Of a stretch of DNA of 64,000 nt, positions 63,691-63,897 are shown in pieces. The notes beneath the pieces were generated by a model that saw only the letters and a program-made list of their open reading frames with translations, ran no database searches and was not told the origin of the DNA. Source of the stretch: Escherichia coli (GTDB lineage Bacteria > Pseudomonadota > Gammaproteobacteria > Enterobacterales > Enterobacteriaceae); NCBI RefSeq assembly GCF_003334765.1, contig NZ_QOWT01000007.1, one strand, 5' to 3'. Numbering within the stretch: position 1 is the stretch's first letter; every line of letters starts with the position of its first letter. The translations under genes and the position numbers were made by a program.

Positions 63691-63744
63691 ACTGCCCCCT
63701 TAGTGCGGGGGCAGGATAGCAGAAAATTGGTGAGCAGTGCGGCC

Positions 63745-63880
63745 TTTTCCCCTCACCCCGGCCCTCTCCCCGGAGGGGCGAGGGAGAAAAAAAGAGTGCG
63801 GTGTCGTTTCAGAGTGAGGGAGTACATACAGCGCCGAACGGTCCCCTCTCCCTGAGGGAGAGGGTTAGGGTGAGGGGGCG
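63745..63880. repeat. pair of inverted GC-rich palindromic repeat units in the lldD-trmL spacer
   Basis: CCCCTCACCCCGGCCCTCTCCCCGGAGGGGCGAGGG and, inverted, CCCCTCTCCCTGAGGGAGAGGGTTAGGGTGAGGGGG; each has an internal hairpin. Confidence 0.5.
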
Positions 63881-63897
63881 CAAACGACTATGCCGCA

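What the first reader, a model, noticed from the sequence alone, without database searches (positions are those of the whole stretch)
63691..63897. GC-rich palindromic repeat pair and a hairpin abutting the trmL start codon
The lldD-trmL spacer holds two inverted copies of a roughly 36-bp GC-rich unit (63748..63786 and 63842..63877), each able to fold into a hairpin (for example CCCTCTCCC-tga-GGGAGAGGG). A further perfect 8-bp stem, CTGCCCCC-ttagtgc-GGGGGCAG (63692..63714), ends one nucleotide from the trmL ATG and would sequester the purine-rich Shine-Dalgarno-like sequence. These may be Box C-like repeats doubling as the lldPRD terminator, with possible translational occlusion of trmL.
Basis: seen in the sequence. 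Interest (0 to 1): 0.4.

Follow-up and report, generated by a model that had tools for sequence, protein, structure and literature searches.

The report
Box C repeats and trmL hairpin
The two GC-rich repeats are already-catalogued, strain-variable E. coli "Box C" elements, while the hairpin next to trmL is a deeply conserved structure whose first arm lies between the gene's own promoter and its start of transcription, so it can only silence transcripts that run in from the upstream gene.

Summary
The window end is E. coli K-12 lldD-trmL, transcribed on the minus strand.

**Repeat pair.** The two inverted units (63844..63877 and 63749..63784) match, base for base, Box C / PIT / "TMECO" elements no. 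17 (type A) and no. 18 (type B), also published as G-quadruplex motifs HPG1 and HPG2. They are a dispersed family, with a median of 20 places per E. coli genome. At this locus they vary between strains: spacers run from 47 to 197 nt with zero, one or two units. They are therefore dispensable. The type A hairpin coincides with the mapped lldD mRNA 3' end, but it has no U-tract and scores as non-intrinsic.

**Hairpin.** The 8-bp hairpin (63692..63714) is present in 5404 of 5426 E. coli genomes. It is conserved with compensatory changes in 49 Enterobacterales. It sits directly after a conserved extended -10 element (TGcTATCCT). The published trmL 5' UTR construct starts at the first loop nucleotide (63706), so trmL's own mRNA lacks the anti-Shine-Dalgarno arm.

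**Best reading (partly inferred).** The hairpin is a fold-back insulator that occludes the ribosome site only on read-through transcripts, as in IS10 and IS50. It also marks a mapped 3' end at ORF position +4, 5 nt past the stem.

The repeats are already known; the hairpin architecture is a modestly new member of a known kind.

The parts
63888..64000 (-). 3' end of lldD (stop codon TAG at 63890..63888)
   Evidence: Translation ends ...APMAKGNAA*. RefSeq annotation of the identical K-12 locus.
63844..63877 (+). Box C / PIT / TMECO no. 17, type A (= HPG1). The G-rich strand is the window + strand, so the lldD transcript carries the C-rich complement.
   Evidence: Identical to Table 1 entry 17 of PMC4666352 (K-12 3781061-3781028). 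Contains the exact HPG1 21-mer of PMC5100583. A 57-nt query over this unit finds a median of 20 places per genome.
63844..63864 (-). Watson-Crick hairpin of the type A unit: CCCUCUCCC-UCA-GGGAGAGGG in the lldD transcript
   Evidence: Perfect inverted repeat. Part of the predicted fold.
63840..63840 (-). Mapped dominant 3' end of lldD mRNA (K-12 3781065), 4 nt after the type A hairpin
   Evidence: Term-seq of Adams et al. 2021, supplementary files 1 and 3. Intrinsic-terminator score 1.32, Rho score 1.49, inside a significant Rho region.
63794..63843 (-). Stretch of about 50 nt between the two units. It includes the conserved GGGGACCG-type tail of the type A element. It is absent, together with the type A unit, from the 102-nt allele.
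   Evidence: Allele comparison. Comparison with other K-12 copies.
63787..63793 (-). T7 run that leads into the type B unit (the T-rich 5' flank typical of type B / HPG2)
   Evidence: Sequence. The T-rich leader is also seen at the hrpB, ygfF and alx copies and is noted in PMC5100583.
63749..63784 (-). Box C / PIT / TMECO no. 18, type B with one mismatch (= HPG2). The G-rich strand is the transcribed-sense strand.
   Evidence: Identical to Table 1 entry 18 of PMC4666352 (K-12 3781121-3781156). Contains the exact HPG2 21-mer.
63713..63721 (-). Extended -10 promoter element TGcTATCCT of trmL. The last two bases are also the first two of the hairpin's 5' arm.
   Evidence: T-12, A-11 and T-7 are invariant, and TG is at least 90% conserved, in 49 Enterobacterales. 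The simple scan found no promoter because there is no -35 match.
63706..63706 (-). Probable trmL transcription start (K-12 G 3781199). It is the first loop nucleotide and the 7th base after the -10 element.
   Evidence: Primer JW10180 for the 'entire 5' UTR + ORF' trmL fusion starts at GCACTAAGGGGGCAG. That paper cites the dRNA-seq study of Thomason et al. 2015 wherever it states the source of a start site. This evidence is indirect; the start-site table itself was not available.
63692..63714 (-). Conserved hairpin CUGCCCCC-GCACUAA-GGGGGCAG, -17.7 kcal/mol
   Evidence: The trmL-proximal 33 nt (63691..63723) match at 100% in the eight shortest alleles sampled, and 5404 of 5426 E. coli genomes have a match to the spacer. 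Covariation across genera. G.U versus A.C asymmetry.
63695..63701 (-). Shine-Dalgarno sequence AAGGGGG of trmL. The five G form part of the hairpin's 3' arm.
   Evidence: Sequence. In read-through RNA the mean P(unpaired) over the 7 nt is 0.29, which is what the two loop A residues alone would give. In RNA started at 63706 it is 0.49.
63687..63687 (-). Mapped RNA 3' end (K-12 3781218), 5 nt after the hairpin, at position +4 of the ORF
   Evidence: Term-seq of Adams et al. 2021. Intrinsic score 1.92, Rho score 3.68, inside a Rho region.
63217..63690 (-). trmL (yibK) coding sequence
   Evidence: ORF list. RefSeq annotation.

Best explanation
There are two unrelated things in this spacer.

(1) The repeat pair. 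It is one type A and one type B member of the Box C family (also called PIT elements, TMECO and HPG1/HPG2). This is a non-coding dispersed repeat of E. coli and some relatives that is gained, lost and rearranged between strains. At this locus the pair is an accessory. In K-12 the type A hairpin sits where the lldPRD mRNA ends. The most likely role (inferred) is as a stable stem that stops 3'-to-5' exonucleases after Rho-dependent termination further downstream, as REP elements do. It is probably not a true intrinsic terminator.

(2) The hairpin at trmL. It belongs to an old module conserved across Enterobacterales: an extended -10 promoter, then a C-rich 5' arm (the discriminator and first transcribed bases), a loop, a 3' arm that is the Shine-Dalgarno sequence, and the ATG.
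- Shown by conservation, and indirectly by a published construct: transcription from trmL's own promoter starts in the loop or the 5' arm, so that mRNA lacks the anti-Shine-Dalgarno arm and is open for ribosomes.
- Shown by a mapped 3' end just after the stem: transcripts from the co-directional upstream gene (lldD here, cpxA in most other genera) carry both arms.
- Inferred: on those transcripts the hairpin hides the ribosome site, the untranslated trmL is exposed to Rho, and the RNA is trimmed back to the hairpin.
- Net effect, inferred: TrmL output is insulated from the regulation of the upstream operon. This is the same logic as the fold-back protection of IS10 and IS50 transposase genes against outside transcription.
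For: Box C identity:
- Exact match to published entries for this locus.
- Median of 20 places per genome.
- Type A plus type B pairs at other K-12 loci.

Dispensability:
- Spacer alleles of 47, 72, 102, 153, 185 and 197 nt, with no intact unit (47 and 72 nt), one (102 and 185 nt), two fused (153 nt) or two (197 nt).
- Only 2715 of 5404 genomes cover at least 80% of the K-12 spacer.

3' ends:
- lldD 3' end 4 nt after the type A stem, non-intrinsic score, in a Rho region.
- At least four other Box C copies carry mapped 3' ends 3-5 nt after their stem, at 164636+, 4231270-, 3959467- and 847200-.

Hairpin conservation:
- The trmL-proximal 33 nt are 100% identical in the eight shortest E. coli alleles sampled.
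- A hairpin of -9 to -22 kcal/mol lies between the -10 element and the ATG in all 49 Enterobacterales examined.
- 7 of 9 pairs show changes on both sides. 84.4% of cells are paired against 73.6% in shuffles (0 of 500 shuffles as high). Covariation score is 0.345 against 0.178 in shuffles, and 0.05-0.17 when the partner is slid.
- G.U cells number 36 against 5 A.C cells, so the structure is read on the sense RNA.

Promoter:
- TG-n-TA-nnn-T is invariant or nearly invariant.
- A start 7 nt after the -10 element falls in the 5' arm (34 of 49) or the loop (15 of 49), and on average 75% of the pairs would be lost.
- The published 5' UTR construct starts at the first loop base.

Read-through RNA exists:
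- A 3' end lies 5 nt after the stem. It cannot come from a 20-nt promoter transcript.

Rho:
- There is a Rho-termination region inside trmL (score 8.4). A fusion that starts at the transcription start site, and so lacks the 5' arm, showed no Rho effect. The authors called this 'unclear'. The model explains it.

Context:
- In the loci with the hairpin where the crude ORF scan was readable, the upstream ORF is co-directional with trmL at 35-271 nt. It is cpxA-like or lldD-like by its C-terminal residues.
Against: - The transcription start rests on a cloning primer and on promoter conservation. I did not see the primary start-site table; four data sources were unavailable or did not list trmL.
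- No measurement of TrmL translation from read-through versus promoter transcripts exists.
- In genera with longer stems, 2-4 inner pairs could still form in the promoter transcript.
- The arms-only alignment used for covariation was anchored on predicted stems, so it leans towards the structure. The species are also related.
- The 3' end after the hairpin could reflect genuine, weak termination rather than trimming.
- For Box C, the exonuclease-barrier role is inferred only from the position of 3' ends. Earlier reporter work found no terminator activity, but it did not test RNA stability.
Confidence: 0.55

Rival explanations
1. The hairpin is part of trmL's own mRNA and constitutively, or conditionally, sequesters the Shine-Dalgarno sequence, acting as a translational repressor or thermosensor-like element for all trmL transcripts.
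For: The stem includes the five G of the only Shine-Dalgarno-like sequence and ends 1 nt from the ATG. It is stable at -17.7 kcal/mol and conserved with covariation.
Against: A conserved extended -10 element overlaps the first two bases of the 5' arm. The usual start position falls inside the arm or the loop in all 49 species. The published 5' UTR construct starts at the first loop base. The -10-to-ATG distance of 22-29 nt leaves no room for another promoter downstream.
Confidence: 0.1
2. The hairpin is simply the intrinsic terminator of the upstream operon (lldPRD in E. coli, cpxRA elsewhere). Its overlap with the trmL ribosome site is incidental.
For: A Term-seq 3' end lies 5 nt after the stem. 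In many genera the hairpin is the only structure in a 35-60 nt cpxA-trmL spacer. Serratia and some Pantoea have U-rich tails.
Against: The intrinsic-terminator score is 1.92, below the threshold of 3. Only 5 of 49 species have 5 T in the 8 nt after the stem, and none has 6. E. coli has UAUGCUAA. The feature that never varies is inclusion of the Shine-Dalgarno sequence in the 3' arm together with the -10 element directly 5' of the stem. This rival does not exclude the best explanation.
Confidence: 0.2
3. The inverted repeat works at the DNA level. It could be a palindromic operator for a dimeric regulator over the trmL start site, or merely a GC-rich discriminator (as in stringently controlled rRNA and tRNA promoters) that happens to complement a G-rich Shine-Dalgarno sequence.
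For: The -10 element plus GCGCC discriminator closely resembles rrnB P1 and tyrT (from my own knowledge; not tested here). The repeat spans positions -8 to +16 of the promoter. Symmetric changes in an operator would mimic compensatory changes.
Against: G.U wobble cells outnumber A.C cells 36 to 5, which fits sense-strand RNA and not a DNA palindrome. Loop length varies from 3 to 9 nt and stem sequence differs widely between genera, which is unlike a protein site. An RNA 3' end is mapped just after the stem. A GC-rich discriminator role for the 5' arm can coexist with the RNA role.
Confidence: 0.08
4. The Box C pair is a structural switch (G-quadruplex, hairpin or intrastrand triplex) that regulates trmL or lldD expression, as suggested for HPG1/HPG2 and invoked for the 'variants' upstream of trmL in irradiated populations.
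For: By my reading of the sequence, the type B unit places four G-tracts in the sense strand 60 nt upstream of the trmL ATG. Oligonucleotides of these motifs fold into G-quadruplex, hairpin or triplex forms in vitro (PMC5100583; PMC4666352). Box C-type units sit just upstream of the trmL -10 element in Kluyvera, Pluralibacter, Pseudocitrobacter and Enterobacter asburiae as well.
Against: About a quarter of a spread sample of E. coli genomes has no trace of either unit, and about half lack the full pair. The promoter and hairpin stay invariant in those genomes. Published surveys found no relation to gene class, distance or operon position, and no promoter or terminator activity.
Confidence: 0.07

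Closest known systems
Box C repeats of E. coli (also called PIT elements, TMECO types A and B, and HPG1/HPG2 G-quadruplex motifs)
   Same: The sequences are identical to the catalogued copies at this locus. The three-block architecture is the same: CCCTCTCCC, loop, GGGAGAGGG, TTA or CCG, GGGTGAGGG. The units are intergenic, form an inverted type A plus type B pair, occur about 20 times per genome, and are hypervariable between strains.
   Different: Nothing differs in the elements themselves. In the other K-12 pairs examined (hrpB-mrcB, ygfF-gcvP, alx-sstT) the type B unit comes first and the two are 18-30 nt apart. Here the type A unit comes first and the gap is about 59 nt. The match between Box C stems and mapped RNA 3' ends is not mentioned in the Box C papers I could read.
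Fold-back protection of IS10 (Tn10) and IS50 (Tn5) transposase genes against outside transcription (Davis, Simons and Kleckner 1985, cited in PMC13181058; mechanistic details from my own knowledge)
   Same: An inverted repeat sequesters the translation-initiation region. The gene's own promoter starts transcription inside the structure. Only read-through transcripts therefore carry the inhibitory 5' arm.
   Different: Here the gene is a chromosomal housekeeping gene (a tRNA methyltransferase), not a transposase. The module is conserved with covariation across an order of bacteria. The translational effect has not been measured here.
REP / BIME elements as mRNA 3'-end stabilisers
   Same: Both are GC-rich extragenic palindromes at the ends of operons, with RNA 3' ends just after the stem and no U-tract.
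   Different: The sequence family is different. The true REP of this region lies at 63173..63208, between cysE and trmL. A stabilising effect of Box C has not been tested.
Rho-independent (intrinsic) terminators
   Same: Both have a GC-rich stem of 8-9 bp with a mapped 3' end 4-5 nt downstream.
   Different: There is no U-tract after either stem. Published intrinsic scores are 1.3 and 1.9, below the threshold of 3, and both sites lie in Rho-dependent regions.

Membership tests
Box C / PIT / TMECO | Three G/C-rich blocks: CCCTC(T/G)CCC(C), loop, GGG(G)AGAGGG, TTA (type A) or CCG (type B), GGGTGAGGG | tested here: met
   63844..63877 equals TMECO 17 (type A) and 63749..63784 equals TMECO 18 (type B, one mismatch), base for base.
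Box C / PIT / TMECO | Dispersed multicopy repeat, about 20-30 copies in E. coli, always intergenic | tested here: met
   Median 20 and maximum 35 places per genome over 5410 genomes. The five K-12 loci inspected are all intergenic. Published counts are 22-32 and 23.
Box C / PIT / TMECO | Type A and type B units paired in inverted orientation | tested here: met
   Inverted arms of 22 nt, 86% complementary. The same pairing occurs at hrpB-mrcB, ygfF-gcvP and alx-sstT. Pair 17+18 is listed in PMC4666352.
Box C / PIT / TMECO | Locus hypervariable between strains | tested here: met
   Six spacer lengths with zero, one or two units. 2715 of 5404 genomes cover at least 80% of the K-12 spacer.
Box C / PIT / TMECO | Formation of an intrastrand triplex or G-quadruplex in the cell | not testable with these tools
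   Only in vitro CD and NMR data and an in vivo footprint are reported in PMC4666352 and PMC5100583.
REP / BIME | REP consensus palindrome (GCCGGATGCGGCG...-type) | tested here: not met
   The units have no similarity to it. The only weak naRNA4 (REP-derived) Rfam match is at 63173..63208, outside the spacer.
Intrinsic terminator | GC-rich stem-loop followed directly by a U-tract | tested here: not met
   [quoted passage not shown] The tails are GACCGUUC and UAUGCUAA. Published intrinsic scores are 1.32 and 1.92, below 3.
Sigma-70 extended -10 promoter | TGnTAnnnT motif with T-12, A-11 and T-7 conserved, and no -35 requirement | tested here: met
   TGcTATCCT at 63721..63713. T, A and T are invariant and TG is at least 90% conserved in 49 species. 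The upstream region is not conserved.
Sigma-70 extended -10 promoter | Primary transcript start 6-8 nt downstream of the -10 element | tested here: inconclusive
   The published 5' UTR construct starts at the 7th base, G at 63706. The dRNA-seq table itself could not be read.
IS10/IS50-type fold-back inhibition of read-through transcripts | The ribosome-binding site lies in the 3' arm of an inverted repeat | tested here: met
   GGGGG of AAGGGGG is in the 3' arm in E. coli. A G-rich Shine-Dalgarno-like run is in the 3' arm in all 49 species.
IS10/IS50-type fold-back inhibition of read-through transcripts | The gene's own transcripts start inside the structure and lack the 5' arm | tested here: met
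   A start at -10 plus 7 falls in the 5' arm or the loop in 49 of 49 species. The E. coli construct start is at the first loop base. This evidence is indirect.
IS10/IS50-type fold-back inhibition of read-through transcripts | Read-through transcripts carrying both arms exist | tested here: met
   A Term-seq 3' end at K-12 3781218 lies 5 nt after the stem and 20 nt after the start site, so it must belong to RNA started upstream.
IS10/IS50-type fold-back inhibition of read-through transcripts | Read-through transcripts are translated less than promoter transcripts | not testable with these tools
   Only a folding prediction is available. Mean P(unpaired) over AAGGGGG is 0.29 in read-through RNA, the value the two loop A residues alone would give, against 0.49 in start-site RNA.

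The most novel reading that the evidence does not exclude
The trmL hairpin is a conserved 'transcript-origin discriminator' for a housekeeping gene. The promoter is built into the stem, so only foreign (read-through) transcripts fold the anti-Shine-Dalgarno arm. Those transcripts go untranslated, are terminated by Rho inside trmL, and are trimmed back to the hairpin. This would insulate synthesis of a tRNA-modification enzyme from lactate (lldPRD) or envelope-stress (cpxRA) induction across Enterobacterales. It would also explain why a reporter that starts at the transcription start site showed no Rho effect. A second, smaller novelty is that Box C stems may act generally as RNA 3'-end barriers, giving these 'functionless' repeats a role like that of REP elements.
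Probability: 0.4. Interest if true: 0.5.

Novelty: new member of a known kind. Interest (0 to 1): 0.3.

Why it matters
The repeat pair needs no new explanation. It should be labelled Box C (TMECO 17 and 18), and sequence "variants" reported inside it should be treated with caution.

The hairpin is more useful.
- It shows how a small housekeeping gene sitting directly behind a strongly regulated operon can keep its own expression level without a terminator in between.
- It offers a concrete, testable reason for an unexplained result in a published Rho-termination screen.
- The regulation of TrmL is said to be unknown (PMC10948607), although TrmL affects RpoS translation.
- The match between Box C stems and mapped RNA 3' ends suggests a simple function for a repeat family that has been discussed for thirty years mainly as a DNA-structure curiosity.

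Tried and rejected
- Rfam: no family matches the units or the hairpin. There were only chance microRNA-type hits with E-values of about 0.3 to 9, far below gathering scores.
- Simple promoter and terminator scan: nothing was found on the relevant strand, because the scan requires a -35 match and a T-run.
- RNAalifold on the plain MAFFT alignment of 49 upstream regions gave no structure, because MAFFT aligned the arms out of register. I therefore used per-sequence folds and an arms-only alignment anchored at the C-run. That alignment leans towards the structure.
- A chimera test swapped 3' halves between species. It was only mildly informative: native folds averaged -15.2 against -12.6 kcal/mol for chimeras, and 28% of chimeras folded as well as the native sequence, because many genera share the CCCCC/GGGGG core.
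- Transcription-start tables:
  - The Cappable-seq file is truncated before this position.
  - SMRT-Cappable-seq, Kim 2012 and Mendoza-Vargas 2009 do not list trmL or yibK.
  - Thomason 2015, the supplements of Conway 2014 and Benitez-Paez 2010 are not held.
- Rejected: membership of REP/BIME (different sequence).
- Rejected: an essential regulatory role for the Box C pair (absent in many strains).
- Rejected: a DNA palindrome or operator (G.U asymmetry).
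Full report
**Where we are.** The end of the window is identical to E. coli K-12 MG1655. On the plus strand it runs secB, gpsA and cysE. On the minus strand it holds trmL (63217..63690) and the 3' end of lldD, with the stop codon at 63890..63888. The finding lies in the 197-nt lldD-trmL spacer (63691..63887), which is transcribed on the minus strand. Window and K-12 (NC_000913.3) coordinates are related by window = 3844905 - K-12.

- The 8-bp stem CTGCCCCC/GGGGGCAG with a 7-nt loop is at 63692..63714, one base from the ATG.
- The two inverted GC-rich units are at 63749..63784 and 63844..63877.
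- CCCTCTCCC-tga-GGGAGAGGG is at 63844..63864.
- The 21-nt core of the units occurs twice in the window, against none expected in 100 shuffles.
- The spacer RNA folds far better than shuffles, z = -4.4.
- Rfam has no family for any of these features.

**The repeat pair is Box C and is already catalogued at this locus.**
- Holder et al. 2015 (PMC4666352) studied the element 'earlier described as BoxC', re-discovered as PIT elements. They list 23 copies ('TMECO') in MG1655.
- No. 17 is CCCTCTCCCTGAGGGAGAGGGTTAGGGTGAGGGG, type A, at 3781061-3781028. No. 18 is CCCTCGCCCCTCCGGGGAGAGGGCCGGGGTGAGGGG, type B with one mismatch, at 3781121-3781156. These are exactly the two units here.
- Kaplan et al. 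2016 (PMC5100583) list the same two as G-quadruplex motifs HPG1 and HPG2 between lldD and trmL, without mentioning Box C.
- A 57-nt query over the lldD-proximal unit finds a median of 20 places, and up to 35, per genome in 5410 E. coli genomes.
- Other K-12 spacers (hrpB-mrcB, ygfF-gcvP, alx-sstT and downstream of fabI) show the same two subtypes. Type A ends in ...GGGGAC(C/T)G. Type B is led by a T-run.
- In those other pairs type B comes first and the units are 18-30 nt apart. Here type A comes first and the gap is about 59 nt.

**The pair is dispensable and unstable.**
- Only 2715 of 5404 E. coli genomes cover at least 80% of the K-12 spacer.
- Fetched alleles have spacers of 197, 185, 153, 102, 72 and 47 nt.
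  - 197 nt: both units.
  - 185 nt: a 12-nt deletion inside type B.
  - 153 nt: the two units fused around a 35-nt palindrome.
  - 102 nt: type B only.
  - 72 nt: only a GGGGTGAGGGG stub.
  - 47 nt: no trace of either unit.
- In an evenly spaced sample of the ranking, about a quarter of genomes have the 47-nt form.
- This matches the published conclusion that Box C loci are hypervariable.
- It argues against any essential role of the pair in terminating lldD or controlling trmL.
- Box C-type units also occur in this spacer in Kluyvera, Pseudocitrobacter (an array), Superficieibacter, Pluralibacter and Enterobacter asburiae.

**What the type A unit does to RNA.**
- Term-seq data of Adams et al. 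2021 (PMC7815308) place the 'primary' lldD 3' end at K-12 3781065 (window 63840). That is 4 nt after the 9-bp type A stem.
- Its intrinsic-terminator score is 1.32 (threshold 3) and it lies inside a significant Rho-termination region.
- Searching the same table for Box C sequence shows 3' ends 3-5 nt after the stem at four other copies: 164636+, 4231270-, 3959467- and 847200-. A fifth, at 632098+, lies about 10 nt after the stem.
- There is no U-tract, and earlier work found no terminator activity for these elements.
- The most economical reading (inference) is that the stem is a barrier where 3' exonucleases stop, as shown long ago for REP elements (my own knowledge).
- So 'doubling as the terminator' is only half right.

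**The hairpin next to trmL is a different and much older feature.**
- The trmL-proximal 33 nt (63691..63723) match at 100% identity in the eight shortest E. coli alleles sampled, and 5404 of 5426 genomes have a match to the spacer.
- I fetched trmL loci from 80 species. In all 49 Enterobacterales examined, a hairpin of -9 to -22 kcal/mol fills the 22-29 nt between a conserved upstream motif and the ATG. These include Escherichia, Citrobacter, Enterobacter, Serratia, Yersinia, Erwinia, Pantoea, Edwardsiella, Hafnia, Rahnella and Photorhabdus.
- No comparable GC-rich stem next to the ATG was found in the Pasteurellaceae, Xenorhabdus and Rheinheimera loci.
- Stem sequences differ between genera in a compensatory way, for example CUG...CAG, UGCG...CGCA, GCGU...ACGC and GCGG...CCGC.
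- On an arms-only alignment anchored at the C-run:
  - 7 of 9 pairs show changes on both sides;
  - 84.4% of cells pair, against 73.6% in shuffles (0 of 500 shuffles as high);
  - the covariation score is 0.345, against 0.178 in shuffles and 0.05-0.17 when partners are slid.
- That alignment is fitted to predicted stems and the species are related, so the numbers are supportive rather than probabilities.
- G.U cells outnumber A.C cells 36 to 5. This points to a structure read on the sense RNA, not to a DNA palindrome or an antisense RNA.

**The motif directly 5' of the stem is a promoter.**
- In the MAFFT alignment, the invariant columns upstream of the stem are the T, A and final T of TATCCT.
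- The TG two bases further up is at least 90% conserved, and nothing further upstream is conserved.
- That is the signature of an extended -10 sigma-70 promoter: TGnTAnnnT, with Hafnia carrying TATAAT and Edwardsiella TATACT.
- In E. coli the motif is at 63721..63713, and its last two bases are the first two of the 5' arm.
- A start 7 nt downstream falls in the 5' arm (34 of 49 species) or the loop (15 of 49). On average 75% of the stem pairs would be missing from such a transcript.
[quoted passage not shown] That is G 3781199 (window 63706), the first loop base and the 7th base after the -10 element. Wherever that paper states the source of a start site, it cites the dRNA-seq study of Thomason et al. 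2015.
- I could not read a primary start-site table, so this step is indirect.

The gene's own mRNA has a 16-nt leader, lacks the anti-Shine-Dalgarno arm, and leaves the ribosome site more open. Mean P(unpaired) over AAGGGGG is 0.49 in that mRNA, against 0.29 in read-through RNA, which is the value the two loop A residues alone would give.
- The compensatory evolution still needs an RNA that contains both arms. Such RNA exists. Term-seq finds a 3' end at 3781218 (window 63687), 5 nt after the stem and only 20 nt after the start site. It must therefore belong to transcripts coming from upstream. Its intrinsic score is 1.92, its Rho score is 3.68, and it lies in a Rho region.
- In the loci with the hairpin where the crude ORF scan was readable, the upstream ORF is co-directional with trmL at 35-271 nt. 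By its C-terminal residues it is cpxA-like in most genera and lldD-like in the Escherichia and Enterobacter group.

**Proposed mechanism.** Steps marked 'inferred' have not been shown.
1. Read-through RNA from the upstream operon folds the hairpin.
2. The Shine-Dalgarno sequence is buried and trmL is not translated on that RNA (inferred).
3. The naked ORF is terminated by Rho. A Rho region with score 8.4 is mapped inside trmL at 3781497.
4. The RNA is trimmed back to the hairpin (inferred).
5. RNA from the embedded promoter is open and translated.

This is the logic by which IS10 and IS50 protect their transposase genes from outside promoters (Davis, Simons and Kleckner 1985, cited in PMC13181058; the mechanistic details are from my own knowledge).

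The model also explains a published puzzle. The trmL fusion that starts at the transcription start site showed no Rho effect despite the significant Rho score, which the authors called 'unclear'. That construct lacks the 5' arm.

**Rivals.**
- A plain intrinsic terminator for the upstream operon is not excluded as an added function. However, only 5 of 49 species have 5 T in the 8 nt after the stem and none has 6.
- A DNA-level operator is disfavoured by the G.U asymmetry and by the variable loop of 3-9 nt.
- The 5' arm also gives the promoter a GC-rich discriminator like those of rRNA and tRNA promoters, so growth-rate control is plausible. That is untested and rests on my own knowledge.
- A regulatory G-quadruplex or triplex role for the Box C pair is disfavoured by its absence in many strains.

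**Verdict.**
- The repeats are already known and ordinary.
- The hairpin is real and conserved.
- The hairpin probably acts on read-through transcripts, not on trmL's own mRNA.
- The promoter-inside-the-stem arrangement is, as far as the searchable literature shows, undescribed for trmL. It is a new member of a known kind of mechanism.
- A recent review states that it is unknown whether TrmL is itself regulated by stress factors.
- Interest is modest.

Noticed in passing
window 63173..63208: A REP-type palindrome (gccggatgcgatgtaatcatctatccggcctac) lies between the convergent cysE and trmL genes. It is the only weak Rfam hit to naRNA4, at 26 bits, below the gathering score. No repeat feature is annotated there in the RefSeq records fetched.
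   Followed up: partly
L004:427-579 (E. coli MLI023K2, 153-nt spacer allele): The two Box C units are fused around a perfect 35-nt palindrome, CTGTCTCTTGATCAGATCTCCTGATCAAGAGACAG. From memory, its first 19 nt equal the IS50 inside end. The palindrome occurs in 1838 of 5426 E. coli genomes. In many of them 33 of the 35 nt lie under an annotated 'IS4 family transposase' feature. This looks like a solo pair of IS ends, or an excision footprint, inside Box C.
   Followed up: partly
L002:403-587 (E. coli 12690; O157:H7 strains gave a match of the same length and 93% identity): This common 185-nt allele differs from K-12 by a 12-nt deletion between GGGG repeats inside the type B unit. The deletion removes one G-block, so the triplex and G-quadruplex potential is lost while a simple hairpin remains.
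   Followed up: partly
K-12 3781140, 3781145, 3781150, 3781152 (window 63765, 63760, 63755, 63753): PMC11344242 reports four low-frequency 'variants' inside the type B unit, arising in all irradiated populations, plus one at 4070483 in another Box C copy. Because they lie in a 20-copy repeat, they may be read cross-mapping between Box C copies rather than real mutations.
   Followed up: no
L030:1262-1503 (Pseudocitrobacter faecalis); L034:1226-1503 (Kluyvera): Pseudocitrobacter has an array of Box C-type units in the lldD-trmL spacer, with a roughly 50-nt piece repeated. Kluyvera has type A right after the lldD stop and type B 13 nt before the trmL -10 element, the same order as K-12. The G-rich end of a unit often abuts the trmL promoter's -35 region.
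   Followed up: partly
K-12 3781497 (+) and 3781526 (-), inside trmL (window about 63408 and 63379): The published Rho-termination regions lie on both strands inside trmL. The antisense one probably comes from cysE read-through across the REP element into trmL.
   Followed up: no
L014..L060 upstream regions: In most Enterobacterales outside the Escherichia and Enterobacter group, the ORF directly upstream of trmL ends like cpxA (C-terminus ...SPLGGLRL..WLPLY...; identified from memory, not searched). The spacer is only 35-88 nt, so the trmL -10 element sits at or next to that ORF's stop codon.
   Followed up: partly
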